Source: a virus
Lineage: Duplodnaviria > Caudoviricetes
Virus record (IMG/VR): IMGVR_UViG_3300008255_000098
DNA: 64,000 nucleotides
Strand: one strand, 5' to 3'
In this document: piece after piece, positions 1,818 through 63,874 of the stretch
Layout of the letters: every line of letters starts with the position of its first letter
Position numbering within the stretch: position 1 is the first letter of the stretch
Notes under the pieces: generated by a model
What the model was told of the DNA's origin: nothing
The model's input: only the letters and a program-made list of their open reading frames with translations
Database searches by the model: none
Program-made: the position numbers and the translations under genes

Positions 1818-2117
1818 ATGGAAACAGACATAAAAAATACTATAAGAGACCTTGTTAAAACCACTATTTCACGACTATTGGAAGAGAATAATATTGTTAG
1901 TCTTGACAGGTTTAAAAAAGAAAAAAGAGACAAAGAAGGCTATTACGGAGAAGTTCTTGTTTCAAAAGACGGAATGGTTACTTTAGACCCAAATGATTAT
2001 TACTTTATAAAACTAACTCACCGAGATCAAGCAGATGCAATAATAGATGGTAATATTGAATTGGCTGAGACCCTAGGAGCTATAAAAATTCCTTTGATAG
2101 GAAAAACTATAAAATAA
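1818..2117 (+). CDS. Hypothetical protein with Glu-motif leader
   Basis: 99-aa ORF; leader KNTIRDLVKTTISRLLEEN; CTATTTA motif at 1806-1812 just upstream. Confidence 0.75.
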   Translation: METDIKNTIRDLVKTTISRLLEENNIVSLDRFKKEKRDKEGYYGEVLVSKDGMVTLDPNDYYFIKLTHRDQADAIIDGNIELAETLGAIKIPLIGKTIK

Positions 2118-2908: not shown

Positions 2909-3718
2909 ATGAATATTAAAGATCGTTGGATGAAATTAGCTGGGATTACACCCAAAAGTCCTACAAAATCAAAACAAAATCTAAAAGAAGGTTTTGTTAA
3001 CCTTGGAATGGCTTCCCCAGGAATTATGGGTAACCCGTTTGGTCGTGGTGCAAAAAGCTTGGCAGAAGAACAAGAGCAAGATGAAGACCAAATCAAAACT
3101 AGAAAATACGGCGAAGATAAAGAGGAAGACATGGAAGTCAACGAATCACAACTCGCTGTAGACCCATTTGAAGGTCACCCGGAAAGAGGATATAACGGAC
3201 CCGATTATGACCCGAGCCAAAATCCAGAAATCCAAGCACTTCCGAGACAGATTGGTTCGCCGCTTGACGATGAGTTCTCGTTAGACAATTTTGATCCGGA
3301 AGAGGAAGGTTTATCTGAGCGACCTCCAAAATATTATAAAAAGTCAGACGATGAGGATTGGTACGGGTCAGACGATGAGGGTTGGTACGGACTAGAAGAC
3401 ATGTCTCCAGAAGAACGTGACGAACGTGAGAGAAGAGTATTTGGCGCAAGCAACAGTGCTGGTCGTAGAGGACACAGAGACGAAAGTCATAAGCCTGCTG
3501 GCAAAAAAAACCGACACCTAAAAGAAAGAGTTGAAAGTGCAGATGAGCTTCAACAAGAGTTGAAAAGATTAATTTATGAGGCAGACGACATATTTGGCCT
3601 TCTACTAGACGGAAAAACAAAGTACAATAGACAACTTTTAAAAGTAGGACGAGGATTTTTACGAAAATGCTCACGTGCTGTGTTAGACGCAACAAGTTCC
3701 TCGTTGAATAGGGAATAA
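2909..3718 (+). CDS. Acidic low-complexity protein, candidate head core/internal protein
   Basis: N-terminal RWMKLAGI, several L/V-x-E motifs (NLKEG, SLAEE, VNES, HLKER) and D/E-rich composition; ATATTTA at 2887-2893 upstream. Confidence 0.7.
   Translation: MNIKDRWMKLAGITPKSPTKSKQNLKEGFVNLGMASPGIMGNPFGRGAKSLAEEQEQDEDQIKTRKYGEDKEEDMEVNESQLAVDPFEGHPERGYNGPDYDPSQNPEIQALPRQIGSPLDDEFSLDNFDPEEEGLSERPPKYYKKSDDEDWYGSDDEGWYGLEDMSPEERDERERRVFGASNSAGRRGHRDESHKPAGKKNRHLKERVESADELQQELKRLIYEADDIFGLLLDGKTKYNRQLLKVGRGFLRKCSRAVLDATSSSLNRE
3343..3390 (+). repeat. 24-bp tandem duplication (2 copies, 1 mismatch) encoding SDDEDWYG/SDDEGWYG
   Basis: gtcagacgatgaggattggtacgg followed by gtcagacgatgagggttggtacgg. 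Confidence 0.9.
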
Positions 3719-3723
3719 TAGAA

Positions 3724-4308
3724 ATGAATTTTTCAAGCAATAGGTGGAAACAACTTGCTGGTGTCTTAAAGGAAGGTGGCAATAAGCGCATATCAGCTAT
3801 AGGGTCTGATGACAGTGTGGATGGTCCTTATACAGAAATTTCTCCTTTACAGCCTATGGAACAAGACACAAAGTGTCTGCAAGAAGGCGAAGGGGAATAC
3901 CCTGCTACTGCTAGTGAGTATGCTAAAAAATTAAATGCCGAGCATGATGGACTATCTAAATTAGTAAGCGACCAAGAACATTGGGAAAAAGTTGGCATAT
4001 ATTCCGGAGAAGACTTGGCTAGATATCTAGCTATTTCTTCTTACGTGGACACATACAAAGATTCTTATGGAATACGTCCAAGACACGTGAAGTTTAGTAA
4101 CTTATCAATTGGCCAAATTGTTGAACTAACAGACGATATTATGAAAGATGCGTTAGGGGAAGAAGAAGAAGTAGAAGAAGACGATTATGAAGATGAATAT
4201 CCTGTAGATTTCGACGATGCTGTTGGGGACAATGACCCGGCGCCTGGGGATGAATATTCTGCCCTAGAAAACGAAATGGATAGAAAACACCACGGTAGAT
4301 CTTTTTAA
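3724..4308 (+). CDS. Acidic protein with the same N-terminal RWxxLAG motif as the upstream gene
   Basis: N-terminus RWKQLAGVLKEGG, internal CLQEGE, acidic tail. Confidence 0.75.
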   Translation: MNFSSNRWKQLAGVLKEGGNKRISAIGSDDSVDGPYTEISPLQPMEQDTKCLQEGEGEYPATASEYAKKLNAEHDGLSKLVSDQEHWEKVGIYSGEDLARYLAISSYVDTYKDSYGIRPRHVKFSNLSIGQIVELTDDIMKDALGEEEEVEEDDYEDEYPVDFDDAVGDNDPAPGDEYSALENEMDRKHHGRSF

Positions 4309-4712: not shown

Positions 4713-4758
4713 TTTTGATAAGCCCTGGGGGGATTTTTAACCTCAGGGCTTATCAAAA
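4713..4758. terminator. Long inverted repeat, probable bidirectional intrinsic terminator
   Basis: TTTTGATAAGCCCTG...CAGGGCTTATCAAAA (15-bp perfect stem) lies between convergent genes and overlaps the stop codon of the actin-like gene. Confidence 0.6.
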
Positions 4759-5757
4759 AACTTGTGCAGCAATCAGGCAACCTTTGGCGACACTGTGTAG
4801 TGCATCAGCGGCATGACGCACTTCGCTTACCTCAAGCGGAAATTCATTTTCCGCTAATTTATCTTCAAACATTTTAACAAAGCCTTTTGCCTTTGAGGTA
4901 CCACCGGCAATTACTACTGGTAAAGGACTCACAAATTTAGGAAGATTTTTTCTTCCTTCTAAATGCACACAAAGCTGTTTAACCGTATAGTCAATTAACC
5001 TAGCATAATAAGAAGAAACTGCTGCCAAAACTGGATTTTCATTTGCTTCGCCAACAGTAAATTCTCCACCTTCTTTTTCTGCCTGGACAACAGAGTCTGG
5101 TTCCCCAGAAGCAACAGCTGACATTCTGTCAATCCAGTCACCAGATTTTGTCGTTGAAAATTTCAAAACTGGTTCACCGTTTAGCATCACGCACACATTC
5201 ACCATTCCGGCACCAAAAGAAAGAGTCACCCCCGTATAATCATCTTTTTCTAACTCGGCGTAACACAGTGCTTCGGCTTCATTTATTGCTCTAGCATCGT
5301 AACCTTGTTCAGATAATATTTTTGTTACTACGTCTTCGTGATATCCTATATCAAATTCTTCATCTTCTTGGTCAATTGGTTGTGCGGGTACACAAAAAAC
5401 AAGTTTTTCACCTGCTTTTTTCGCTTTTCCTACAACCTCTTTTAGGATATATGACAAAACTTTTCTAGCATCTTTCTCTTTTGCAGATACTACACCACGA
5501 TACATGGGACGTTTTGCGCTGTCATTTCTTTCAACTGCCTTCTCTAGTGCGTCACTTCCAAGAACTATAAATGAACCATTTTCTTCATCCTTAACAAAGA
5601 TTTTCCCCTTCAAACCCTTTTCAATCATTTTAGTTGCAATAGGGGTTGTTGGTTTTATTACATAAAATGCATCTCGGAAATCTTTATAAACAACATTTCC
5701 ATCTTTATTTTCACCAGCTAGCACTATAAACGATGTTCCGCAATCAAGACCTTTCAT
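4753..5757 (-). CDS. Actin-like ATPase (MreB/ParM/FtsA superfamily)
   Basis: Phosphate-1 GLDCGTS, connect-1 INEAEA, phosphate-2 variant SFGAGMVN, adenosine IAGGTS. Start re-set to ATG 5757, preceded by AGGAGG. Confidence 0.85.
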   Translation of the reverse strand: MKGLDCGTSFIVLAGENKDGNVVYKDFRDAFYVIKPTTPIATKMIEKGLKGKIFVKDEENGSFIVLGSDALEKAVERNDSAKRPMYRGVVSAKEKDARKVLSYILKEVVGKAKKAGEKLVFCVPAQPIDQEDEEFDIGYHEDVVTKILSEQGYDARAINEAEALCYAELEKDDYTGVTLSFGAGMVNVCVMLNGEPVLKFSTTKSGDWIDRMSAVASGEPDSVVQAEKEGGEFTVGEANENPVLAAVSSYYARLIDYTVKQLCVHLEGRKNLPKFVSPLPVVIAGGTSKAKGFVKMFEDKLAENEFPLEVSEVRHAADALHSVAKGCLIAAQVF

Positions 5758-5768
5758 ATATCCTCCTA

Positions 5769-5948
5769 GTGAACTGCTCACCTACGACAGCAAAAAAAGC
5801 CGATGGGCTGGGCTTCGGGGATCACAGGCTCATCTAAAATAAATGGTAAAAACGCCTCACCCCGTTTTGCTTTAAAAAAAACATAGGATTCAGTCCCAGA
5901 ATCCGACAATATATCTATACCTTGTTTTAAGAATATTTTTTGTTTCAT
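5769..5948 (-). mobile_element. IS200/IS605-family tnpB 3' remnant with right end / omegaRNA-like sequence
   Basis: Translates to ...LKQGIDILSDSGTES...KRGEAFLP...EPVIPEAQPIG (TnpB C-terminal tail type) and ends GAAGCCCAGCCCATCGGC...GTAGGTGAGCAGTTCAC. It abuts the RBS of the actin-like gene. Confidence 0.7.
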
Positions 5949-6415: not shown

Positions 6416-6850
6416 ATGCATCATAGTGATCCAATGAAATATACAATGGAACAACTTGTTAAAGCACTAACAGCTGAAGCTTTAGGGGAAGTTTCAAACA
6501 ACAATCTCATGTTGCAACAAGAATGCGCTTGTGAAGACAATGATGATAACGAAAATTTAGAAAACAATACTAAATGGGACCAAGTTGCACAGGCGTTGGT
6601 AGCAGAAATTAAAAATCAGTTTTCTGGCATAAGTGTTAGAGCAAACGGACCAGAAGCCGAAGAATGTATAGATAGTTTAGCTTCGCTTGTTAGTTTATAC
6701 TCTGAATATCCAATGGCATTTAAATTATTGTCCGCAGTTGAGAAAATAGCTTCCGACGAAACAGACTCACGAGTATTTGCTTCTTTAATAGTTCAGGCAA
6801 TGAATAGCGATGCGGCAGATGAGTGGAAAAGATATAACCAGCATAAGTAG
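6416..6850 (+). CDS. Hypothetical protein with Glu-motif leader
   Basis: Start re-set to ATG 6416 (or 6434), after CTATTTA at 6404-6410; leader MEQLVKALTAEALGEV. Confidence 0.65.
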   Translation: MHHSDPMKYTMEQLVKALTAEALGEVSNNNLMLQQECACEDNDDNENLENNTKWDQVAQALVAEIKNQFSGISVRANGPEAEECIDSLASLVSLYSEYPMAFKLLSAVEKIASDETDSRVFASLIVQAMNSDAADEWKRYNQHK

Positions 6851-6977: not shown

Positions 6978-7808
6978 ATGGTCGATAGAGATAAACAACA
7001 AACAGACGAATTTAAAAAAGCAAACTCAAAAATTGTAACAGTTGGTGGAGAAAAAAAACTTCTATTAATGGACGATGATGAACCTAAAAATTCTGATGAG
7101 GAAATTGATTTACAGGAAATAATTGAAACTTTGGTCAGAGAAGCTTTGGAAGAAAACGAATTGTACAAGGATTATAATAAAAAAAAACTTTGTGAAGGAT
7201 ATATTGACGAAGCTGAATTCCCAAATGGTTTCAATATAGAAGAATTCAATAAAATTTCAAGTTTTAAAAATCGTGTCTCATATGCTAAAAAACATCTCCA
7301 GCGAGTTGCTGGTGGTTCTGGCAGAGTAGTCTTTGTAGTAGACCCAGAAACAGTTGTTAAAATTGCATTAAATAAAAAGGGCCAAGCTCAAAATAGTGCA
7401 GAATGGGACATTAGCAATATGGGGTATTCTGCTGTAACAAAGGTAAAAAATGCGGACACAGACAAATATTTGTATCTAGAAGTTGAACGAGCAAAAAAAC
7501 TCAACATGCGTGATTGGAAAAAAGTAACTGGTTGGAATTTTTATGACTGGATGGCTGTATTGAGAAATTACGTTGATGAACGTTTTAATAAAAAACGGGC
7601 TAGGAACATTGTTCCTGAAGACTTTGAAGAAATTGAAGAATCAGAACTTTTTTTAACCATTGTTCAAATGATTACAGATTTTAACATGCCAGCTGGTGAT
7701 ATACAGCGACCTTCCTCTTGGGGTATTGTTGAAAGAGACGGCGCAGAAACTCCTGTTTTAGTTGATTACGGATTGACTGGCGAAGTATATAAAAGCTACT
7801 ACAAATAG
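6978..7808 (+). CDS. Atypical protein-kinase-like fold protein
   Basis: Gly loop AGGSGRVVF, VVKIA Lys, QNSAE alphaC Glu, catalytic-loop variant GDIQRPSSWG, LVDYGL. Acidic leader containing LQEIIETLVREALEEN. Confidence 0.7.
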   Translation: MVDRDKQQTDEFKKANSKIVTVGGEKKLLLMDDDEPKNSDEEIDLQEIIETLVREALEENELYKDYNKKKLCEGYIDEAEFPNGFNIEEFNKISSFKNRVSYAKKHLQRVAGGSGRVVFVVDPETVVKIALNKKGQAQNSAEWDISNMGYSAVTKVKNADTDKYLYLEVERAKKLNMRDWKKVTGWNFYDWMAVLRNYVDERFNKKRARNIVPEDFEEIEESELFLTIVQMITDFNMPAGDIQRPSSWGIVERDGAETPVLVDYGLTGEVYKSYYK

Positions 7809-7809
7809 T

Positions 7810-9834
7810 TTAAGCAACTTCTTTTTTGTATGCGTGCAAAATATTTGGTATAAACTTTTTATATCTAAATTTTTTACTTAGCAACATGGACATAAGTTTT
7901 TCATAAGAGTTGATATCTTCCCAAGTTGTCCCTCTCCCAAAAAATATTTTTGCCATTTCATTTGGGTCTGTTGTAATCGGCTCATCTGATAGTTTTATTT
8001 TCTGCACATTTTTTTGTCGTCCAGTAGGTAGAACGGTTTTAATTTTTTGTTTTCGCATCCCATCTCTAAAATTCAAAACAAAACGAATATATTCATCTTC
8101 GTTTTCTGTTGGCAACTTAATTTCTCTAGCAATGTTACTCAACAACTTGTTTCTGTCCCTTGCTTTATAAGAACTATCTTTAGGAGCCCCTGAGTTAACA
8201 TCCGTCATCCACTGAAGATTTCCTACAAATATATCTACTTGAATAAATCCTGGTTCATCTCCACGAGACCCGTCAGATAAAAAGTTATTTATTTGTTTGT
8301 TTGAACTATCTACCAGCGGCGCTAAAATATGAAATTGACTTAACCCTTTGTTAATTGAATATTTCTCAGCGTCGCTTGTTTGTAACAGCCTATCAAGGCT
8401 ACTCCAAATATTTTTTTTGTCTTTTGAGGAAACTCCTAAAAATTTTGCTAAGTCTTTGCCGTCAATTGCAACGTCTATGTCGTTAAAAAATTCTTTTGTT
8501 TTATTACCAACAACATTGAATGGAATCCCGCCTAATCCACTATTTTTTAGTGCATTTGCTATAGCTGGCTCTAAAAGTGCTTTTGGAACTACAGAATTCA
8601 TTTCATCAAATACATTGCCTCCCTCTGTAAGGAAGTGCAAAGTTTTACTAAGTTTTTGTTCTGGTAGTAGTTCTCTTTTCATAAACATCTCAGCAACTTC
8701 CTTCGGGGGAATGCCTTGGGACAGTTTATTTTTAATTGCTTTTACAAATCCAAGATTTAATTTAATATCATTTTTTGTATCTTCAACCTTACGAGGGATT
8801 GTGATCCACTGTTGGCCTGTTTTTTTGAAATCTTCTTCGGCTCTATGTATTTCTTCTTCCCAAGCAGAAAGATATTTTTCTATATTTTCTGGGTCATTTT
8901 TAATATCTTTTTTGAATGTTCTAATTGCGCTTTCAAGCATTTTTAGAAACCTTCGATTTTCATCACCCTTTTTGAGAAATTTTTCTGTGTCAACAATTTT
9001 TAGCAATTCGCCCTCTGGGTTTTTGACAACTATACCCTCTACCTCATCACCAAATTTACTAGATACGTTTTTCTGTAATATTTGTTGTTTGGCTTCAAGT
9101 CCTAAATCTTGGATTGCTTTAAGAAGTTTTTGTTTCAATTCTTTTTCTGCTGGTTTACGAGCTGGTTTAGATAAGAAATTTCCGTGCTTTTCAATAATAT
9201 CTTCAAGCGAAACTATTATTGAAGAACTAAAATCTAGATCATGTAAATCAACATTTGGGACAGAGAAAAATTTTACTTTACTATATTTGTTAGCTTTGTT
9301 TGCAAAAGATTCCCAAATTTTTGGATTTGATAAAACGCCTGTGTTATCTTTGGAAACAGAAGTTTTCATATTAAATATTACAAGAATTCCGTTTCCAATT
9401 TTAGCCTCATCGTATATCACAATATTGTGATCATACGTTGGAACTGCCTCGCCAGCGACTTCAAGAGTATCAGTAAATTCAAAACCAAATTCTTCAGACA
9501 ACTCCTTACCTATTTCAGCCCACGGAATTTCAGATAATAACTCAAAATATTTCTTAAAACTAGTCATGAAATACAAATCTGGGATTTCCTCAGCTGAGTA
9601 CCAAATTTGTGTCTTTGAACGAAGATAAAATCTTCCGTTATCAATACCAGCCGCTCGATAACTACCGTCGATCTTTTCTGATACATGAAATTTAGCTTTA
9701 TCTAAATTCCATGCTTTTAAAAAGTTCAAAAGTTTCTGTGGAGACAATTTTTCAAGATGGACTACGCCTTCATTTAAATTTTTAAATGCTCGTGCTACTT
9801 CTTCGGTTATTAGCTTTTGTAAAAAAAATTTCAT
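7810..9834 (-). CDS. Fusion of an ATP-dependent ligase (RNA-ligase-like) nucleotidyltransferase domain and a Pol-beta-type nucleotidyltransferase domain
   Basis: Ligase motifs I EKIDGS, III GEAV, IV EGIVVK, V KIV. The second domain after LTEGGNVF has GN...NDIDVAID and QVDIF. Confidence 0.7.
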   Translation of the reverse strand: MKFFLQKLITEEVARAFKNLNEGVVHLEKLSPQKLLNFLKAWNLDKAKFHVSEKIDGSYRAAGIDNGRFYLRSKTQIWYSAEEIPDLYFMTSFKKYFELLSEIPWAEIGKELSEEFGFEFTDTLEVAGEAVPTYDHNIVIYDEAKIGNGILVIFNMKTSVSKDNTGVLSNPKIWESFANKANKYSKVKFFSVPNVDLHDLDFSSSIIVSLEDIIEKHGNFLSKPARKPAEKELKQKLLKAIQDLGLEAKQQILQKNVSSKFGDEVEGIVVKNPEGELLKIVDTEKFLKKGDENRRFLKMLESAIRTFKKDIKNDPENIEKYLSAWEEEIHRAEEDFKKTGQQWITIPRKVEDTKNDIKLNLGFVKAIKNKLSQGIPPKEVAEMFMKRELLPEQKLSKTLHFLTEGGNVFDEMNSVVPKALLEPAIANALKNSGLGGIPFNVVGNKTKEFFNDIDVAIDGKDLAKFLGVSSKDKKNIWSSLDRLLQTSDAEKYSINKGLSQFHILAPLVDSSNKQINNFLSDGSRGDEPGFIQVDIFVGNLQWMTDVNSGAPKDSSYKARDRNKLLSNIAREIKLPTENEDEYIRFVLNFRDGMRKQKIKTVLPTGRQKNVQKIKLSDEPITTDPNEMAKIFFGRGTTWEDINSYEKLMSMLLSKKFRYKKFIPNILHAYKKEVA

Positions 9835-9835
9835 T

Positions 9836-10351
9836 TCACTTTTTCATTTTTTGAATACGGTCATACATATCATCTTCATCTGCAACCCAATCCTCTTCTT
9901 TATCAGCAGCATCGTCTATCATCTCTGCTAACTTTATCAATTGGGCATTTGACTTTTCCATTCTTTCCATGTATTTTGATAGAATGGCACCGTGTATAGC
10001 ATGTTCGTTTGATTTGTTGTGGACATCTTTATATAAATCACCAAATAAGATATATGCATTTTTCCTGTCGCTCACAGCATTTTCATATATCTGCTTCCAC
10101 AATAGTTTTTTCTTATCCTCAAGAGAAGAAATTGTATCTAATAAAGCACTAAAATCTAGAAGTTGTTTTTCGGTATCTTTATCTAATTTTTTAATGTCTG
10201 TTGGAATAAATGTCATTTCTGGACGTTGGGCTGGAAAAGTCTGCGGAATATACTCATATCGTTTTTTATCTTTAGTCTGTTCATCATCATCGGCATCATC
10301 CAAAGCTTCACTTAATTCTTCTTCAAAAGTTTTGTTTAAATTATCTTGCAT
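9836..10351 (-). CDS. Hypothetical helical protein
   Basis: Start re-set to MQDNLNK (ATG 10351), 5 nt after ATAATTA; appears translationally coupled to the ligase gene. Confidence 0.7.
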   Translation of the reverse strand: MQDNLNKTFEEELSEALDDADDDEQTKDKKRYEYIPQTFPAQRPEMTFIPTDIKKLDKDTEKQLLDFSALLDTISSLEDKKKLLWKQIYENAVSDRKNAYILFGDLYKDVHNKSNEHAIHGAILSKYMERMEKSNAQLIKLAEMIDDAADKEEDWVADEDDMYDRIQKMKK

Positions 10352-26458: not shown

Positions 26459-27735
26459 TTATATTACTTCCTTAAACGTTTCTGTATATTGTTCGCTGAT
26501 AGCCGAAAAGCTGTAATTTTCTTGCAGCTTCTTCGCCAGTTCCTTTGCCCATTGTTGAGGCACGCCAGGACTGTGGTAAAATTTATTTAACTTTCTTTTG
26601 ACATCTTCTTCAATTGGATTTGCCCATTGCATTTCTGCAAGAAAAATTTTATTATCTACTCTTGTTTCATGAATTTTCACAAGATTATAATCTATTTTAA
26701 CAAACTTTCCTAAATTCAAAAATTCTGTATGAGCACTCCAATTTGTAGCTATTACTGGTAATCCGCAGGCAGCTGCTTCTAAAATCGGAAGCCCGAAACC
26801 TTCGCCTCTAGTTAAACTAACTAAAGCTTTGACCTTGGGGTGTCGGTACAAACTGGCAACTTCATTGTCGGTCATATCTCCATGTAGCAGATAAAACTTT
26901 GGGCCTAGACCTTTTTTTGTTTCAAGCAATACTTTAGAAAGTATATTCACCGTATTTGCTCTATCCATTTTTGAGTTTCGTCCAAAATTTGTCTTTATGA
27001 TAACTCCAACTTCTGGGCTGTCTTTAAACTCTTCTGATAACCACTTGATGGTATAAACTAAATTTTTCCTATCATTTTCTGGGTTATTGCCGCAGAATTG
27101 ACCAAATACTAAAAAATTAAAATCAGTAGTAATTTTTGATAGGTCTAAAACAGAATCTGTTGAAACAGTTGAATCTACAAGACTAACTAAGCAGTTATCT
27201 GTAAACGCTTCTGGTAAGACTACAATTTTAGTAGTACACTCGCCAGTATTTAAAAACACCCTTTTGACAAATTCTGACGGAACCACAACAAGGTCCATTT
27301 GGTTTACACAGCTACCCATTCCGGGGAACACCTATCTGTTTCAACCGCCGCTGTAATTCCTATATTATAGTCAGCTAGAAAGGGGTTCCATTCGTTTGGA
27401 AGTTGTAGTTGCATTGAAACATCATAACTATCTGATACAACTGCGTGTTGTATCAAGCGACCTACCAACCCATCGTAGGCGTCAGTATTAACTACCCAAG
27501 GTGTAACTCCCCAGCGTAATGGTTCTATAAAAAGTTCCAGATCATCTCTATTATCTATTTGTTCAAAAAGCCACCTAGCAACTTGTCTGGAATGAACTCC
27601 ATATCCTGACTGGGTAAGAACAGGGGCACGTAAAATTACTTTTTTCTTTTGCTTTTCTTTTTTAAGAAATAAATCTTCTGTATCGTTTTTTAAAAGATCG
27701 TCTATATTTCCAAGTTCTTGTATTTGTTTACTCAT
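26459..27735 (-). pseudogene. GT-B (GT4-like) glycosyltransferase split by a single frameshift near 27310
   Basis: The 5' ORF ends ...AVETDRCSPEWVAV* and the overlapping frame continues CVNQMDLVVVPSEF. The C-terminal half has the EGFGLPILEAAACG GT4 motif. One extra base would join them. Confidence 0.8.
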
Positions 27736-29258
27736 CGACTTCTCCTATTAGATGTCTTTCCTTTTGGACGACTCTTCTTTTTTACTTTAGTTTTACTGGT
27801 TTTTGGTAATGATGTTGTAGCTTTATTTTGTACTGATTGTATTGAAGAAATTCTTTTCTTTTCAACAGTTTTTGTAGAAGGTGTGGAGGTTTCTGGTGTG
27901 ACCTCAGGCCCCGAGGTCAATTCACGCCCTAAAGATGGTTCGAGCGACATCAATTCCCAGCGATTTTGTTGTCCGGTCTTTTGGAATCTATCAATACAAT
28001 CCGTTAATTTTTCGTCCCACTTTTTGATCATGTCTTCATACTTGAATTCTGACTCAACGTATGCTTTGCATTTTTCGCTAAGTACTTTTTTTTCTTCAGG
28101 AGTATAATCATGAACAGTCATGAATGCTTTTGCTAGATCTTCGGTGCTTGCATAATCTTCATAGATATATGGAACTAATTGAGACCCAACCAAACAACGC
28201 TTTGCAGGGTCTAACGCAACCCCGTGTGTAGAACCATCACGATAATCTACAACTTTACTTGTTTCGCCTCCTGTTTTAAGTGCGATTATAGGCTTTCCTA
28301 CTTGCATAGAAATGAGTGTAGACAATCCAAAACCTTCATTTTTTGATACGTTTACAGTAACATCTACAAGATTATAAAGTGTATTCATTTTATCAAATTG
28401 AAGTTTCTCTGTTGAAAACCATACATTATTTTGTAATTGAAGTCGCTCAGTTACTTGCAACAAGTCTGGACCTTCTGGGTCTTTTGGGTCCGTGTGCATT
28501 ATTAGAAGGGCATTTCTGTGCCCGTGTTTGGCCTCTAGGTTATCTAGAAATAACTTCCAAGAATCTAATACATCAGCTGGTAATTTTCTAGTTGCATTTC
28601 TATTGACCCACAACGCTTTAAACCAATCTGCTCTAGGTCCAAAGTTTTGCACCAAAAGGGTGTTTCTTTCCTCAACGGGAATCTCAAAATAAACATTTTT
28701 GGGAAAGGAGTGCGGAATGTATGTTGTAGTTTCTGGAAAATGCGGCTTAACAAGTTCATATGTCTTATATGACAAACAACTAATGAGGTCAGTAGATTCA
28801 TACCACACCCTATTATAATCTGGATAAGGATCATTGTCCCAAACATGCCAATAAGCAATTGGACACAATTGGTGAACCTCATCTTCGATTTCCCAGAGCC
28901 AAATAAACTGGCGTGGATCTGTGAAGATCAACAAAACATCTGGCTTTTCTGTTGCTAATATTTGTCTAATCATGTCATGAGTACCAAACCCGTCAACAGG
29001 CTTAATAATAAAATCATCATTGACTTTAATTGTTTGGTAGTCTTGATGTTTGATCGCCCCGCCCAAACAACGAAAAGAATATTTTCCTGTTTGAATCAAA
29101 CCGTCGATTAAAAATCTAGCTTGAATACCAACTCCACTAGGAGCTAACGGGTGGTCAGACAATAATAATACTTTTTTCTTTTTAGTCGGTTTGATAAAAA
29201 GATCGTCTAATAATTTATTATCAACGGTTAATAAATCTTCTGTCATTAATTTCTCCAT
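27732..29258 (-). CDS. GT-B (GT4-like) glycosyltransferase with basic C-terminal tail
   Basis: VLLLSDHPLAPSGVG..., NRNATRK, EGFGLSTLISMQVGKPII. Confidence 0.85.
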   Translation of the reverse strand: MEKLMTEDLLTVDNKLLDDLFIKPTKKKKVLLLSDHPLAPSGVGIQARFLIDGLIQTGKYSFRCLGGAIKHQDYQTIKVNDDFIIKPVDGFGTHDMIRQILATEKPDVLLIFTDPRQFIWLWEIEDEVHQLCPIAYWHVWDNDPYPDYNRVWYESTDLISCLSYKTYELVKPHFPETTTYIPHSFPKNVYFEIPVEERNTLLVQNFGPRADWFKALWVNRNATRKLPADVLDSWKLFLDNLEAKHGHRNALLIMHTDPKDPEGPDLLQVTERLQLQNNVWFSTEKLQFDKMNTLYNLVDVTVNVSKNEGFGLSTLISMQVGKPIIALKTGGETSKVVDYRDGSTHGVALDPAKRCLVGSQLVPYIYEDYASTEDLAKAFMTVHDYTPEEKKVLSEKCKAYVESEFKYEDMIKKWDEKLTDCIDRFQKTGQQNRWELMSLEPSLGRELTSGPEVTPETSTPSTKTVEKKRISSIQSVQNKATTSLPKTSKTKVKKKSRPKGKTSNRRSR

Positions 29259-29329
29259 TTGAGATAGCAGTTTGTTTCACTTAAACCATTCTTATGGATA
29301 ACAGGTATTTTGTATCATACTAGATGGCA

Positions 29330-30331
29330 TTATTTGTCATTTTTCATTTCATTGGCGAGGTCAGCTTCATACATTTCTTTAGCAAGTTCCGTAAATTTAA
29401 CTTTAGGCTCCCAACCTAAAATGTTTTTTGCTTTTGTCGCATCTCCGAGCAAATATGGAACCTCTTGCGGACGTAAAAGTCTTTTATTAAAACGTACATG
29501 TTTGTCCGTTGATAAGTTTGCAAGTCTAAATACTTCTTCTAAAAATTCTCGTACCGTATGTGCTTCCTCGGTCGCCAAAACATAGTCACTAGGGACATCT
29601 TGTTGAACCATCAAAAACATTCCTTCAACAAAATCTTTTGCGTGCCCCCAATCTCTTTTTGCATCTAAATTTCCAAGCTCTAGAACTTCTTGTTTCCCTA
29701 GCTTAATTCTTGCAGCTGCTTGTGTAATTTTTCTTGTTACGAAAGTTTCCCCTCGGCGTGGGCTTTCGTGGTTAAAAAGTATCCCGCAAGAAACATGGAG
29801 ACCATAACTTTCTCTGTAATTTCTGCATAGATGATGTGCATATAACTTAGCTGCCCCATACGGAGAGGCCGGTATCATCTGCGTTTCTTCATTTTGGGGG
29901 TGGACTAGATTGACACCGTAAAGTTCGCTAGTGGAGGCTTGATAAAAACGAGATGTTGGGCAAACTTCCTTAAAAGCATTTAGAAGTTTTAGCGTGCCCA
30001 TTCCATCTACTTCTAATGTTTCCTCTGGAACGTCAAAAGATGCTCTAACATCACTTTGTGCTGCTAGATTATATATCTCATCGGGTTTGTATTTGGACAT
30101 TACTCTCCAAAGAGAGTGTGTGTCTGTCATATTTCCGTATTCTAAATGAAAATTTGGGTGATTGAAAATATGGTCAACACGACTTGTGCTAATTGTAGAT
30201 GCTCTTCGTTTTATACCAACTACTTTATAACCTTTTTCCAGAAGAAGTTCAGCAAGATAACTTCCGTCTTGGCCCGTAATTCCGGTGCAAAGAGCAACCT
30301 TTTTATTTTTTGTCATTATTTTCTTCTCCAC
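29330..30331 (-). CDS. gmd: GDP-mannose 4,6-dehydratase
   Basis: GITGQDGSYLAELLL, YNLAAQSDV, FYQASTSELYG, SPYGAAK, GILFNHESPRRGETFVTRKIT, GNLDAKRDWGHA. Confidence 0.95.
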   Translation of the reverse strand: MEKKIMTKNKKVALCTGITGQDGSYLAELLLEKGYKVVGIKRRASTISTSRVDHIFNHPNFHLEYGNMTDTHSLWRVMSKYKPDEIYNLAAQSDVRASFDVPEETLEVDGMGTLKLLNAFKEVCPTSRFYQASTSELYGVNLVHPQNEETQMIPASPYGAAKLYAHHLCRNYRESYGLHVSCGILFNHESPRRGETFVTRKITQAAARIKLGKQEVLELGNLDAKRDWGHAKDFVEGMFLMVQQDVPSDYVLATEEAHTVREFLEEVFRLANLSTDKHVRFNKRLLRPQEVPYLLGDATKAKNILGWEPKVKFTELAKEMYEADLANEMKNDK

Positions 30332-55714: not shown

Positions 55715-56527
55715 TTATTTTTCTTCGTCATTGCCTGACCATAAAATATCATATTGACCAGACATATCTCCACCAAGAGGGTTACCTCCCGTGCCAGAAA
55801 TTTTGCCAGAAGACTGCACCGCCCCTGTACCTACACCAATAGCACTAATTTCGTTTATCTTACTAAAATCAGAAATTATTTCTTCCAACTCTTTAATAGA
55901 TTTTTCTGGCGATGTATGTAAAATAGTTGTACCCCCATTTGCAATAAATTTATTCACAAATTTTAGTCTATCATCAATTAGAATATCATACCTGCTATTA
56001 GCAAATTTCTCTTTGTTTTGCGTGCAATAAAAGTTATTGTACATCCCTTTAAAGTTTTTATCAGCCCACTCATGTTTTTCCTTTTCGCAGGTTGGATTAG
56101 AGTCTATTGGGGCAGTTAAAATATTAGGTAGCTTTCCAGTAAAATTTTTAGCAGCATTGAGCATATTTTTAGCTCCTGGTAAAACCTCTAACCCTATAAA
56201 AAATCCTGGCTGCGAAGCAAAAGAATAAGTAAGCCCTCTGTATTTATTCCAAGCTTTTTTAAGCTTTGCCATTACTGGATCTTTTTGTTGACCTCTAAAT
56301 TTTTCTCTTAGTTCATCTGTCGGCAAACCCTGTAAATCAGGAACTTGTGAAAACAATTCATCAAGTTCTTTTTTAGAATTTTCTACTATCTTATTATGTA
56401 CAAGTCCACCATGAAAATCTGCTAATACTCCATCCATATCAAAATAAACTGTTATTTCTGGTTTTTCTAAAGAACTAAGTTCGTTTTCTACTAATAGTTT
56501 AATTAAGTTTTTAATTTTGTGTGTCAT
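55715..56527 (-). CDS. HAD 5'(3')-nucleotidase-like phosphatase with Glu-motif leader
   Basis: IKNLIKLLVENEL leader, VYFDMDGVLADF, ILTAP, ILIDD; acidic/Gly tail after INEIS. Confidence 0.8.
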   Translation of the reverse strand: MTHKIKNLIKLLVENELSSLEKPEITVYFDMDGVLADFHGGLVHNKIVENSKKELDELFSQVPDLQGLPTDELREKFRGQQKDPVMAKLKKAWNKYRGLTYSFASQPGFFIGLEVLPGAKNMLNAAKNFTGKLPNILTAPIDSNPTCEKEKHEWADKNFKGMYNNFYCTQNKEKFANSRYDILIDDRLKFVNKFIANGGTTILHTSPEKSIKELEEIISDFSKINEISAIGVGTGAVQSSGKISGTGGNPLGGDMSGQYDILWSGNDEEK

Positions 56528-57507
56528 CCGTACTCGTGCTTTGTTTGAAGTTTTATTTGTATTTCTTTAAACTTATTTATATCTATGAACCTAATATCGT
56601 ATCGGCTATCTAATTTATAATCAAATACTGATTTAATTATTGGTATAGAGGAATGCATTCCAGCGGTAAGTAAGTTTGTAGGAATTTCTTTTCCAGTTTT
56701 TGGTGTGCCGCCGTTTTTAAGTATTATTTGTGCTTCCCTGGGAAAACTTTCAAGTGGCGTCTCTACGGCCACTAGAAGCCTAGATTTAGTAGGAATTACT
56801 AAACGGGAGGAACTTATAACCCACTCACCTTCAGACTTATAAGTATGTATTCCTTTTAGAACCGAGTATTTTATCAAATTTTGAAATGTTCTTGGATTAA
56901 TAGAGGAGATGTCTTCTGCCGTTGTGTTTTTTAAAATTTCTTCCCAAAAATACTTCGTTAAATCTTCTAGAGAGTTTATTTCGACTTCTCCATTTTCATA
57001 TCTTTTATTTATATCATAAGATGACACATAACCATCACGCATAAGTGACCCAAGATGTCTAACGCCATCATCATTTGAAGTAAGAGCACTCCTATATATT
57101 TCTCTAAAAATATTGTCTATTATTTTTCTATTTCCTTTGACGCCTTGGTCAGCGTTGAAAATTCTACGCAGCATAGCCATATTTTTATTAGTTAGCTGCT
57201 CGATATTATCATATTCAACACGTCTAAGATTTCCTTCATTCACCGATAAAGTATTTTTAGCGTTCATTACTACAACTGCGTTTCTAAATCCAATACCGAG
57301 CCAGTGCATCAAAATTCTATTATTATCTGAGATACCAGATATCCCTTCAAGCACACCTGCGGACAAATCTTTAAGATTCTTATCTGCGGTTGGGGAAACA
57401 GAGGTAATCAGCCAAAATACATTAGGATTTCCAGAAGTAGAACGTACCTCGTGTAAAACATCTTTTGTATAAATGTCAATTATAAATTTTAATTGTCTGG
57501 AAATCAT
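56524..57507 (-). CDS. Hypothetical protein, paralogue of 57504-58496
   Basis: Shared VFWxxTS, WLGI.RNAV, YDN...NM..L.R.F and YKSEGEW; leader LKFIIDIYTKDVLHEV. Confidence 0.75.
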   Translation of the reverse strand: MISRQLKFIIDIYTKDVLHEVRSTSGNPNVFWLITSVSPTADKNLKDLSAGVLEGISGISDNNRILMHWLGIGFRNAVVVMNAKNTLSVNEGNLRRVEYDNIEQLTNKNMAMLRRIFNADQGVKGNRKIIDNIFREIYRSALTSNDDGVRHLGSLMRDGYVSSYDINKRYENGEVEINSLEDLTKYFWEEILKNTTAEDISSINPRTFQNLIKYSVLKGIHTYKSEGEWVISSSRLVIPTKSRLLVAVETPLESFPREAQIILKNGGTPKTGKEIPTNLLTAGMHSSIPIIKSVFDYKLDSRYDIRFIDINKFKEIQIKLQTKHEYG

Positions 57508-58496
57508 AAAAGTTTTTCATGATACTTTTCACGATACTTTTCAAATTTTTCCATTGAGATAAAGTTAACTTGATATCGACTGGATAAATTATACTTATTA
57601 GTAAGCTCTATTAGCCTGAGCGCACGTTTTTCGGTTTGTAATTTTGGTGGATCTGGCCAGGCACCTTGTTTAGGAACTTGTGTGTATTCTTGTCGTGCTT
57701 GGTTAGAAATGGACTTTGGGTCAACGTCAAGAGCGATAAATATAGTACTTCCATTTGGGATTTCCATAGTATCCCCCTTTATCATCCACTCACCTTCAGA
57801 TTTATAAATTTCTCCTATGCGCTTTAGTGCCATGACAATTAAGTTTTCCCACACACTAGTTGGGAAATCCTTAGCTTCTTCTACAAGCCATTTTCCTTTA
57901 TTCTCGGCAATTTTAATAGTTGTTTTTTGTACCCAAGCTGCTAATTCTTTTATAGAATTTATATTTGGTTTTTCGTCTTTGTAGGCAGACCCGTATAAAG
58001 TGGCTGCCAACGTTCCATACTCAATATAATACAAAATAGTGGCAACAGATTTACTAGGTGGTTTTGATTGTTTGCCAGCCCACTGGACATAACCCATTAC
58101 AGTTTGCATTAAACCAAACCAATCATAATCTCGTTCTGGCGAGCGATCAAACAATCTAAAAAGTGTTGTCATGTTTTTTGAAACAAGATAATGTGGGTTA
58201 TCGTACATTATTCTGCTAACATTATTCAGTTTTAAGAATTTCTTAGCCGGGATGACTATAACAGCATTTCTAGCGATACCTAGCCACTGAGTTACAATTT
58301 CTTTCGTTCCAGATATACCTTTAACTCCTTTTAGTTTTCCAGTAGAGATCTGTTCTAAGAATTTTTCTGAGTGTTCATCTATAGAAGTCACCATCCAAAA
58401 AACAGTTGGAATGTCTTTTTGTGTGTAGGATACCTCAATTAGAACTTTTTCTAATTCAGAATTTATTAATTTTTGTAAAACTTTCATTTTACTCAA
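57504..58496 (-). CDS. Hypothetical protein, paralogue of 56524-57507
   Basis: Same shared motifs; leader LQKLINSELEKVLIEV. Confidence 0.75.
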   Translation of the reverse strand: MSKMKVLQKLINSELEKVLIEVSYTQKDIPTVFWMVTSIDEHSEKFLEQISTGKLKGVKGISGTKEIVTQWLGIARNAVIVIPAKKFLKLNNVSRIMYDNPHYLVSKNMTTLFRLFDRSPERDYDWFGLMQTVMGYVQWAGKQSKPPSKSVATILYYIEYGTLAATLYGSAYKDEKPNINSIKELAAWVQKTTIKIAENKGKWLVEEAKDFPTSVWENLIVMALKRIGEIYKSEGEWMIKGDTMEIPNGSTIFIALDVDPKSISNQARQEYTQVPKQGAWPDPPKLQTEKRALRLIELTNKYNLSSRYQVNFISMEKFEKYREKYHEKLL

Positions 58497-63848: not shown

Positions 63849-63874
63849 GTCTTTTCCCAAGTATTTTTCAAAAT

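What the first reader, a model, noticed from the sequence alone, without database searches (positions are those of the whole stretch)
7810..9834. RNA-ligase-like domain fused to a Pol-beta nucleotidyltransferase, each preceded by its own Glu motif
Seen: ligase motifs EKIDGS/GEAV/EGIVVK/KIV lie in aa 53-281 after leader ...NLNE|G. A second enzyme begins after QKLSKTLHFLTE|GG (aa 393-406) with GN...DIDVAID and QVD, the Pol-beta three-carboxylate pattern. Established: phage RNA ligases repair tRNA cut by anticodon nucleases, and Pol-beta NTases include CCA-adding, tailing and cyclic-nucleotide synthases. Inference: this is a virion-delivered two-enzyme RNA repair/tailing (anti-defence) unit that may be split during head maturation.
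Basis: partly seen in the sequence, partly recalled or inferred. Interest (0 to 1): 0.7.

Follow-up and report, generated by a model that had tools for sequence, protein, structure and literature searches.

The report
Leader-tagged phage ligase–polymerase-X repair fusion
An uncultured giant T4-like phage makes one protein joining a nick-sealing RNA-ligase-type enzyme to a stripped-down polymerase-beta/X-type enzyme, each preceded by a conserved protease-style cut site; it is probably a fill-and-seal nucleic-acid repair kit, and probably loaded into the virion, but neither has been tested.

Summary

- **N-terminal part (aa 23-385):** an ATP-dependent ligase nucleotidyltransferase domain plus a helical bundle. 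Its closest solved folds are the nick-sealing RNA ligases NgrRnl, TbREL1 and T4 Rnl2.
- **C-terminal part (aa 405-674):** it has no Pfam match, but folds as a minimal family-X polymerase (palm and thumb, like ASFV Pol X). It does not look like a CCA-adding, tailing, cyclic-nucleotide or RlaP enzyme.
- **Coupling of the two modules:** it is robust. They are fused in many metagenomic phage proteins. They are adjacent, overlapping, leaderless genes in cultured Agrobacterium phage Atu_ph07. A different ligase-like family (DUF6267) is fused to the same polymerase-like module.
- **Cut sites:** both module boundaries carry invariant hydrophobic-x-Glu|Gly sites (LNE22|G, LTE404|GG). These coincide with the first residues of leaderless homologues and match T4 gp21 sites such as those in Alt. 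Related phages encode gp21-type proteases; I did not find one in the 89 kb of this genome that I could reach.

My reading is a leader-tagged, probably capsid-loaded gap-fill-and-seal module. I slightly favour ribonucleotide-patch repair of incoming DNA over tRNA repair. Packaging, cleavage and substrate are all inferred. The scan had already noted the leader system elsewhere in this genome.

The parts
7810..9834 (-). Whole 674-aa ORF (77 kDa precursor): leader, ligase module, linker with cut site, Pol X-like module
   Evidence: 17 close homologues and 181 cluster representatives
9769..9834 (-). 22-aa N-terminal leader ending LNE22, followed by G23; candidate capsid-targeting propeptide and protease site
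   Evidence: L20/E22/G23 are invariant in orthologues. Leaderless homologues start exactly at the G23-equivalent residue. Other proteins in the window have similar amphipathic hxE-ending leaders, and the protein at 57504-58496 shares the start MK.LQKLI. Four core-protein leaders beside the scaffold gene are also 22 aa long and end hxE. A profile built from those four does not retrieve this leader.
8980..9768 (-). Ligase nucleotidyltransferase domain, aa 23-285: motif I EKIDGS (K54, nt 9673-9675), III GEAV (E129), IV EGIVVK (E266), V KIV (K279)
   Evidence: Pfam PF09414 E 3.9e-5, 24.3 bits against a cut-off of 27; 36 of 48 homologues hit PF09414. AF2 pLDDT 95.7. VIA Z 12.0 NgrRnl, 11.5 TbREL1, 11.0 T4 Rnl2.
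8680..8979 (-). All-helical bundle following the ligase core, aa 286-385, in place of the OB domain of DNA ligases
   Evidence: Model helices 261-363; matches only generic helical bundles
8623..8679 (-). Variable inter-domain linker ending in the invariant site LTE404, followed by G405-G406
   Evidence: The linker varies in length and sequence while E404, G405 and G406 are invariant. [LIVMF]xE directly precedes the domain in 64 of 76 homologues, including stand-alone ones with 6-35 aa leaders. The tail of the N-domain model drops to pLDDT 54.
7813..8622 (-). Minimal Pol X-like nucleotidyltransferase, aa 405-674 (30 kDa, pI 9.3): G443-N444, K447, D452/D454 (nt 8473-8481), Q532, D534 (nt 8233-8235)
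   Evidence: No Pfam hit in any of 93 members. AF2 pLDDT 97.4. Foldseek top hits are Pol beta, lambda and mu. The VIA top 10 are all family-X polymerases, Z 9.3-6.8, covering palm plus thumb. Atlas and BFVD relatives are almost all phage proteins.
9836..10351 (-). Conserved 171-aa acidic helical protein directly upstream; its stop is 1 nt from the start of the fusion gene; function unknown
   Evidence: Sequence. It has the same position and orientation in L001-L004 and L006 and in L024. It belongs to a viral-only hypothetical cluster.

Best explanation
The gene encodes a precursor of two cooperating nucleic-acid repair enzymes. Module 1 is an ATP-dependent ligase of the nick-sealing RNA-ligase type; K54 would be adenylylated and the AMP passed to a 5'-phosphate at a nick. 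Module 2 is a minimal family-X-like polymerase; D452, D454 and D534 would hold two metals and add nucleotides to a 3'-OH. Together they would fill a short gap or extend an end in duplex nucleic acid and then seal the resulting nick.

I favour a 'ribo-patch' route on DNA. The polymerase would add ribonucleotides, giving the 3'-ribonucleotide nick that Rnl2/Rnl5-type ligases need. Repair of broken structured RNA is the close alternative.

The 22-residue leader and the two invariant hydrophobic-x-Glu|Gly sites suggest three further steps. The precursor is loaded into the prohead. A T4 gp21-type protease trims it at E22 and probably cuts it at E404, giving 44-kDa and 30-kDa enzymes. Both are then ejected with the DNA and can act before any phage gene is expressed.

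Shown: the folds, the catalytic motifs, the recurrent coupling of the two modules, and the conservation and placement of the sites. Inferred: activity, substrate, packaging and cleavage.
For: Domain identities:
- Ligase: Pfam RNA_ligase in this protein and in 36 of 48 homologues. Model pLDDT 95.7. Best folds are NgrRnl Z 12.0, TbREL1 11.5, T4 Rnl2 11.0 (Foldseek). Motif I, III, IV and V residues are conserved.
- Polymerase-like: model pLDDT 97.4. The ten best VIA matches are all family-X polymerases and cover palm plus thumb (Foldseek). The three Asp residues are invariant in 93 sequences. Some related viral clusters carry the Pol beta palm and thumb Pfam families.

Functional coupling:
- The fusion is conserved in many representatives.
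- In cultured phage Atu_ph07 the two homologues are adjacent, overlapping genes in the same order.
- DUF6267 proteins, which carry KxDG/EG/K ligase-like motifs, are fused to the same C-domain.

Precedents from the literature:
- A ribo-patch model for the nick-sealing ligase DraRnl, with PolX named as a candidate partner (PMC5397189).
- A functional PolX-ligase fusion in a giant virus (PMC5537341).
- RlaP acting with RNA ligases (PMC12776372, PMC7824862).

Packaging and processing:
- The sites are invariant and lie at the domain boundaries.
- Leaderless homologues begin exactly at the residue after the Glu.
- T4 Alt, a packaged enzyme, is cut by gp21 at ITE-6 and LTE-619 (PMC5694885).
- gp21-type proteases occur in 3 of 4 related records, 3-13 kb from the homologue in two of them.
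- In the lineage of the 51%-identical homologue, the protease and the homologue occur in the same sample and on contigs of identical length.
- This genome has a T4-type capsid protein, a scaffold, and small core proteins with 22-aa hxE-ending leaders about 17-22 kb from the gene.
- Several unrelated window proteins carry similar leaders.
Against: - No enzymatic, proteomic or expression data exist.
- No gp21-type protease was found in the 89 kb of the 201-kb contig that I could read.
- A profile of four head-core leaders does not retrieve this leader, so leader kinship rests on shared length, amphipathic character and ending.
- [LIVMF]xE occurs 13 times in the protein. The internal site could be a fossil of a former leader, or part of the fold.
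- The gene sits beside baseplate genes rather than head genes. The Atu_ph07 pair lies near a primase/helicase gene and has no leaders, so packaging is not intrinsic to the enzyme pair.
- The G-N-x7-D spacing departs from the classical G[GS]x9-13D pattern.
- Fold similarity to Pol X is moderate (Z about 9, TM 0.3-0.4) and no Pol X sequence profile matches.
- Nothing here separates DNA from RNA substrates.
Confidence: 0.5

Rival explanations
1. RNA repair against ribotoxins. The polymerase-like module would act like RlaP and restore one or two nucleotides lost from a cleaved tRNA. The ligase would then reseal the anticodon loop and rescue translation from host anticodon nucleases or other RNases.
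For: - The ligase belongs to the RNA-ligase side of the superfamily.
- RNA ligases in jumbo phages are regularly accompanied by a Pol-beta-type NTase, RlaP (PMC7824862).
- RlaP adds 1-2 NMP to the 3'-OH of damaged RNA and is needed to restore heavily damaged tRNA (PMC12776372).
- An Rnl2-family ligase works with a Pol-beta-type enzyme in templated gap filling during kinetoplastid RNA editing (as summarised in PMC5397189).
Against: - None of 93 C-domain sequences matches RlaP (PF10127).
- The fold matches the palm plus thumb of templated family-X polymerases far better than RNA-tailing enzymes.
- The nearest ligases are nick sealers, not Rnl1.
- Neither this protein nor the fusions I scanned contain a kinase, phosphatase or 2H end-healing module. 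Most anticodon nucleases leave ends that need such healing.
- Some relatives of the C-domain are fused to a PD-(D/E)xK nuclease, which points towards DNA.
Confidence: 0.3
2. An ordinary cytoplasmic phage enzyme that is never packaged or cut.
For: - The Atu_ph07 homologues have no leader and lie near replication genes.
- No prohead protease was found in the part of this genome that I read.
- The leader profile test was negative.
- hxE is a frequent tripeptide.
Against: - A structural cap would not be missing from leaderless homologues that begin at exactly the next residue.
- The same hxE|GG junction precedes the C-domain whether it follows a short leader, this ligase, DUF6267 or other modules.
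- Unrelated neighbouring proteins and the head-core proteins carry similar hxE-ending leaders.
- Close relatives encode gp21-type proteases.
Confidence: 0.25
3. The C-domain is not a polynucleotide polymerase. It would instead be a signalling or modifying nucleotidyltransferase: a cyclic-oligonucleotide synthase, a protein AMPylase, or a small-molecule nucleotidyltransferase acting as an ejected effector.
For: - The Pol-beta superfamily includes such enzymes, and polyvalent phage proteins carry Pol-beta NTases predicted to modify proteins (PMC5512222).
- Relatives are often fused to NMN-adenylyltransferase-like domains.
Against: - CD-NTases, alarmone synthetases and MenT-type toxins align only over the roughly 90-residue core, at Z 4.5-5.8. 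Pol X enzymes reach Z 9.3 over about 178 residues including the thumb.
- The domain is persistently coupled to polynucleotide ligases.
Confidence: 0.05

Closest known systems
Nick-sealing RNA ligases: T4 Rnl2, T. brucei REL1 (Rnl2 family), NgrRnl/DraRnl (Rnl5 family)
   Same: The same nucleotidyltransferase fold is the best structural match (Z 11-12). KxDG, motif III Glu, motif IV EG and motif V Lys are conserved. There is no OB domain after the core. The Pfam RNA_ligase family matches.
   Different: Only 13-15% identity. It lacks the N-terminal OB-like domain of Rnl5. Its helical C-terminal bundle is not demonstrably the Rnl2 C-domain. A long helical insert with conserved Lys/Arg lies between motifs IIIa and IV. 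The second Lys of the Rnl2 motif V (KxK) is Val here. It is fused to a polymerase-like module and carries a leader.
Minimal family-X polymerases (ASFV Pol X) and Pol beta/lambda/mu/TdT palm-thumb
   Same: Palm plus thumb architecture without the 8-kDa and fingers domains, as in ASFV Pol X (Z 8.4, 158 of 176 residues aligned). Three carboxylates on equivalent strands.
   Different: No sequence-profile match to the Pol beta palm or thumb families. The motif is G-N-x7-D instead of G-S-x9-13-D. There are about 30 extra C-terminal helical residues. Polymerase activity is untested.
Phaeocystis globosa virus PolX-ligase 'Swiss army knife' (PMC5537341); bacterial LigD
   Same: A repair polymerase and a ligase in one viral polypeptide, acting in concert on gapped or nicked substrates.
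   Different: PgV has a full Pol beta core at the N-terminus and an NAD-dependent DNA ligase at the C-terminus. Here the order is reversed, the ligase is of the ATP/RNA-ligase type, and the polymerase is minimal. LigD uses an archaeo-eukaryotic primase-type polymerase. Neither has leaders or cut sites.
RlaP (PF10127) with phage or bacterial RNA ligases (PMC12776372, PMC7824862)
   Same: A Pol-beta-superfamily NTase genetically coupled to an RNA ligase, with a 'restore nucleotides, then ligate' logic.
   Different: No PF10127 match in 93 sequences. The fold is nearest to Pol X including the thumb. The coupling is a fusion rather than an operon.
T4 internal proteins and Alt with capsid-targeting sequence, cut by gp21 (PMC3012670, PMC5694885); polyvalent phage proteins (PMC5512222)
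   Same: A short N-terminal leader ending in hydrophobic-x-Glu. Alt is an enzyme cut at ITE-6 and LTE-619. The design is a multi-enzyme polypeptide presumed to travel with the DNA.
   Different: No sequence similarity to the T4 leader was shown. Here an internal site would separate two enzymes. Packaging is unproven. Ligase-polymerase cargo has not been described.

Membership tests
Covalent nucleotidyltransferases (ATP-dependent polynucleotide ligases) | Motif I KxDG with the catalytic lysine | tested here: met
   EKIDGS at aa 53-58. K54, D56 and G57 are invariant in 14 orthologues and at least 90% conserved in 48 homologues.
Covalent nucleotidyltransferases (ATP-dependent polynucleotide ligases) | Motifs III, IV and V (Glu; EG; Lys) on the conserved fold | tested here: met
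   E129, E266-G267 and K279 are conserved. The fold matches at Z 9-12 to RNA and DNA ligases.
Covalent nucleotidyltransferases (ATP-dependent polynucleotide ligases) | Formation of a lysyl-AMP intermediate and nick sealing | not testable with these tools
   Needs a biochemical assay.
Rnl2-type RNA ligase (Pfam PF09414) | Profile match above the curated threshold | tested here: inconclusive
   This protein scores 24.3 bits against a cut-off of 27 (E 3.9e-5). 36 of 48 homologues match at E 0.01 or better, best 3.1e-8.
Rnl5 (NgrRnl/DraRnl) | N-terminal OB-like domain preceding the nucleotidyltransferase domain | tested here: not met
   The core starts at residue 23, directly after the leader. The VIA alignment begins at NgrRnl residue 146.
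ATP-dependent DNA ligases | OB-fold domain after the nucleotidyltransferase domain | tested here: not met
   Residues 286-385 are modelled as an all-helical bundle. DNA ligases align only to model residues 1-271.
Pol-beta superfamily nucleotidyltransferases | hG[GS]x9-13Dh[DE]h plus a third carboxylate | tested here: met
   The form is a variant: VGN-x7-DID, with QVD534. D452, D454 and D534 are invariant in 93 sequences and G443 is at least 90% conserved. The Atu_ph07 homologue has the canonical GSGG...GDID.
Family X DNA polymerases | Palm plus thumb subdomains | tested here: met
   The VIA top 10 are all Pol X enzymes, Z 9.3-6.8, with 153-182 residues aligned across model residues 5-250. Foldseek top hits are Pol beta, lambda and mu.
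Family X DNA polymerases | 8-kDa and fingers (helix-hairpin-helix) domains | tested here: not met
   The domain begins at the palm; Pol beta aligns from residue 141 onward. ASFV Pol X lacks these domains too.
Family X DNA polymerases | Match to the Pol beta palm/thumb sequence profiles (PF14792, PF14791) | tested here: not met
   None of 93 members matches at E 0.01 or better. Only a minority of members of more distant viral clusters carry these families.
RlaP (PF10127) | Profile match to PF10127 | tested here: not met
   No hit in any of 93 members, nor in the whole protein at E 1 or better.
T4-type capsid-targeted, gp21-processed head proteins | Hydrophobic-x-Glu site after a short N-terminal leader | tested here: met
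   LNE22|G and LTE404|GG are invariant. They match the T4 Alt sites ITE-6 and LTE-619 (PMC5694885).
T4-type capsid-targeted, gp21-processed head proteins | A gp21-type (Peptidase_S77) protease in the same genome | tested here: inconclusive
   None was found in contig positions 6.6-96 kb of 201 kb. Proteases are present in 3 of 4 related records and in the lineage of the 51%-identical homologue.
T4-type capsid-targeted, gp21-processed head proteins | Presence in virions with processed ends | not testable with these tools
   The phage is uncultured. The Atu_ph07 virion table could not be retrieved.

The most novel reading that the evidence does not exclude
The phage injects a ready-made 'ribo-patch' DNA repair kit with its genome. 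The Pol X-like enzyme would use the host's abundant rNTPs to fill gaps or extend ends in the incoming DNA. The Rnl2/Rnl5-like ligase would seal the resulting 3'-ribonucleotide nicks. Damage from virion nicks or host nucleases would thus be repaired before any phage gene is expressed. This would be the first case of capsid-delivered DNA-repair enzymes made as a protease-cut polyprotein. It would also be natural genetic evidence for the long-debated physiological role of nick-sealing RNA ligases.
Probability: 0.2. Interest if true: 0.85.

Novelty: new variant of a known kind. Interest (0 to 1): 0.62.

Why it matters
The physiological role of nick-sealing RNA ligases (T4 Rnl2, Rnl5) is still open. 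PMC5397189 states that it is not known whether they repair DNA, RNA or both, and proposes a partnership with a ribonucleotide-adding repair polymerase such as PolX. A widespread natural fusion of exactly these two enzyme types makes that proposal directly testable, and so does the adjacent gene pair in a culturable phage (Atu_ph07).

If the leader and cut sites work as in T4, the protein would also extend phage 'ejected cargo' from inhibitors and protein modifiers to nucleic-acid repair enzymes. It would show a polyprotein strategy for loading several enzymes with one address tag. Finally, it defines a large, unannotated, almost purely viral family of minimal Pol X-like enzymes.

Tried and rejected
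- **Solved structures by sequence:** the whole protein and the A1, A2 and A3 profiles gave nothing meaningful.
- **PHROGs:** no family for the protein.
- **GenBank phages:** tblastn with the whole protein found no match. With the C-domain alone there were only non-significant hits (E 0.05 or worse) to a Grimontviridae virion-associated protein, which I did not pursue.
- **Leader profile:** a profile from the four head-core leaders does not retrieve the target leader, or any window leader convincingly.
- **T4 late promoter:** the consensus TATAAATA is not enriched in the window, with 8 found against 8.4 expected.
- **Prohead protease in this genome:** not found in the window, L014 or L017. No whole genome is held. 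Two protease homologue searches listed no cluster from the 201,145-bp contig. The genome is probably larger than this contig, so this is not evidence of absence.
- **Atu_ph07 virion proteomics:** I could not match the homologues to the supplement that is held.
- **DUF6267 against the ligase profile:** hhalign gave only 70% probability, over motifs IV-V. The ligase-like reading of DUF6267 rests on motifs seen by eye.
- **No complex prediction was run**, because I make no claim that the two modules bind each other.
Full report
**Observation.** Window 7810-9834 (minus strand) is a single 674-aa ORF.

The protein has 17 close homologues of 40-56% identity over its full length. They come from metagenomic contigs of up to 343 kb. 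An exhaustive search found 181 cluster representatives. In 14 orthologues the putative catalytic residues and both Glu-Gly junctions are invariant. The linker before residue 402 is variable in sequence and length.

**Domain 1 (aa 23-385).**
- Pfam RNA_ligase (PF09414) matches just below its threshold (E 3.9e-5) and matches 36 of 48 homologues.
- A 48-sequence alignment gives an AlphaFold model with pLDDT 95.7.
- Foldseek ranks T4 Rnl2, archaeal Rnl3, T4 Rnl1, NgrRnl and Trl1 first.
- The exhaustive structural comparison ranks the nick-sealing enzymes first: NgrRnl Z 12.0, TbREL1 11.5, T4 Rnl2 11.0. Trl1 follows at 10.0 and DNA ligases at 9-9.9.
- After the nucleotidyltransferase core comes a helical bundle rather than an OB fold, which is a trait of RNA ligases.
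- The protein lacks the N-terminal domain that defines Rnl5, and its C-terminal bundle cannot be equated with that of Rnl2.

I therefore call it an Rnl2/Rnl5-like nick-sealing-type ligase, not a member of either family.

**Domain 2 (aa 405-674).**
- No Pfam family matches any of 93 homologues, including RlaP, NTP_transf_2 and the Pol beta palm and thumb families.
- The model is very confident (pLDDT 97.4).
- Foldseek's best solved matches are Pol beta, lambda and mu.
- In the exhaustive comparison the ten best chains are all family-X polymerases: a TdT chimera and Pol beta at Z 9.3, lambda 9.0, Thermus PolX 8.6, ASFV Pol X 8.4. They align 153-182 residues spanning palm and thumb.
- Tailing enzymes, CD-NTases, poly(A) polymerases and alarmone synthetases reach at most Z 6.3, over the roughly 95-residue core only.
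- D452, D454 and D534 are invariant in 93 sequences.
- AlphaFold-DB, BFVD and ESM-Atlas neighbours are almost all uncharacterised phage proteins. A few more distant viral clusters carry the Pol beta palm or thumb families.

The domain is best described as a minimal Pol X-like enzyme, as ASFV Pol X is. The similarity is moderate and polymerase activity is untested.

**The two modules belong together.**
- Both occur alone and in many fusions of up to 1,818 aa.
- In the cultured jumbo phage Atu_ph07, the ligase profile hits AUZ94878 (E 2e-8). The polymerase-like profile hits the next, overlapping gene AUZ94877 (E 1.5e-10), in the same order as in the fusion.
- Proteins of Pfam DUF6267 show KxDG, EG and Lys ligase-like motifs. 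They are fused to a second Pol-beta-type module and to the same C-domain.
- Many relatives add NMN-adenylyltransferase-like modules.

**The Glu sites.**
- [LIVMF]-x-E immediately precedes the C-domain in 64 of 76 homologues. This holds whether the domain follows a 6-35-residue leader, this ligase, or other modules.
- Leaderless homologues begin exactly one residue after the Glu position. Several metagenomic proteins start M|GG... or M|GI.H, and both Atu_ph07 proteins do the same.
- The upstream residues are therefore dispensable for the fold, and the junction is a true module boundary.
- The pattern equals the sites at which T4 gp21 trims the packaged enzyme Alt, ITE-6 and LTE-619 (PMC5694885). 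T4 internal proteins are loaded through a short N-terminal targeting sequence that the protease then removes (PMC3012670, PMC5694885).
- gp21-type proteases (Peptidase_S77, E about 1e-26) are present in 3 of 4 related viral records, 3 and 13 kb from the homologue in two of them.
- In the lineage of the 51%-identical homologue, a protease lies next to a T4-type portal gene.

**Context in this genome.** The window is positions 31,991-95,990 of a 201-kb contig.
- A T4-type major capsid protein, a 766-aa scaffold-like protein and four small proteins lie 17-22 kb upstream. The four small proteins have 22-residue leaders that start MK and end hxE.
- Several unrelated window proteins carry comparable leaders.
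- The target leader is also 22 residues long, starts MK and ends LNE.

**Limits of the packaging argument.**
- I found no gp21-type protease in the 89 kb of this genome that I could read. Relatives reach 340-510 kb, so the contig is probably incomplete.
- A profile of the four core leaders does not retrieve the target leader.
- The bare tripeptide is frequent.
- The gene and its conserved, translationally coupled 171-aa upstream partner travel with baseplate genes rather than head genes.
- The Atu_ph07 pair is leaderless and lies near a primase/helicase gene.

Packaging and cleavage are therefore plausible, at roughly 60%, but unproven.

**Mechanism.** The shared logic of the closest systems is 'add nucleotides to a 3'-OH, then seal'. 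A Pol X-type thumb and a nick-sealing-type ligase both point to duplex substrates. Three precedents apply:
- the ribo-patch model for DraRnl, in which a repair polymerase (PolX being a named candidate) adds ribonucleotides and the RNA ligase seals the 3'-ribo nick in DNA (PMC5397189);
- the PgV PolX-ligase fusion that repairs gapped DNA (PMC5537341);
- RlaP with RNA ligases in tRNA repair (PMC12776372, PMC7824862).

I slightly favour DNA, for four reasons: the Pol X fold with its thumb, the absence of any end-healing module, the PD-(D/E)xK fusions among relatives, and the replication-gene neighbourhood in Atu_ph07. Nothing here excludes RNA repair.

The finding is a new variant of known kinds, namely ligase-polymerase repair fusions and leader-tagged T4-type head cargo. 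It has real value as a testable link between nick-sealing RNA ligases and Pol X-type polymerases.

Earlier notes of this scan had already flagged the leader system on this genome. I re-derived the parts I use.

Noticed in passing
window 4753-5781 (-): A phage-encoded actin-fold protein matches Pfam Volactin strongly (E 8e-63). It is conserved in relatives: 77-85% identity in L006 and L002, and in L002 it is part of a 706-aa protein.
   Followed up: partly
window 9836-10351 (-): A 171-aa acidic helical protein lies directly upstream of the fusion gene; its stop codon is 1 nt from the fusion gene's start. It holds this position in every syntenic relative. It belongs to a viral-only hypothetical cluster and could be a partner, chaperone or inhibitor.
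   Followed up: partly
window 2909-3718 (+) and 3724-4308 (+); L016 4907-7207: Two small proteins start with RW.KLAG followed by L-K-E|G. The 766-aa scaffold-like protein upstream of the capsid gene ends in RWQLLAGIKK. This looks like a second leader class that copies the scaffold tail.
   Followed up: partly
window 1818-2117, 6416-6850, 6978-7808, 55715-56527, 56524-57507, 57504-58496 (the last three on the minus strand): Unrelated proteins carry amphipathic leaders ending in hydrophobic-x-Glu. In 6978-7808 (phrog_4301) the leader-like segment is internal, at about aa 45-59.
   Followed up: partly
P0013, P0026, P0053, P0074, P0083, P0088 (relatives, not in the window): In relatives, the ligase and/or Pol X-like modules are fused to one or two HIGH-motif adenylyltransferase domains. 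These are weakly most similar to NMN adenylyltransferases and are separated by the same hxE|G junctions.
   Followed up: partly
P0017, P0075 (relatives): Pfam DUF6267 shows KxDG, EG and Lys motifs typical of ligases and capping enzymes. In both proteins it is fused upstream of the Pol X-like domain; P0017 also carries a second GS...DID nucleotidyltransferase in between. DUF6267 may be an unrecognised ligase family.
   Followed up: partly
Atu_ph07 MF403008.1, 43318-53137: A run of about twelve same-strand, often overlapping genes for 250-360-aa hypothetical proteins. It contains the split ligase / Pol X-like pair and lies next to a primase/helicase gene.
   Followed up: no
L017 3531-9743 (about 16-22 kb upstream of the window): Two tandem genes of about 1,000 aa each, both weakly matching tail-sheath domains, lie directly upstream of the head-core, scaffold and capsid genes. 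Portal and protease genes are not in this block.
   Followed up: no
window 27732-30331 (-): GDP-mannose 4,6-dehydratase (E 2e-125) sits next to a group-1 glycosyltransferase, a sugar-modification module in a phage.
   Followed up: no
window 61284-63860 (-): A class II-like ribonucleotide reductase large subunit with a C-terminal TSCPD domain.
   Followed up: no
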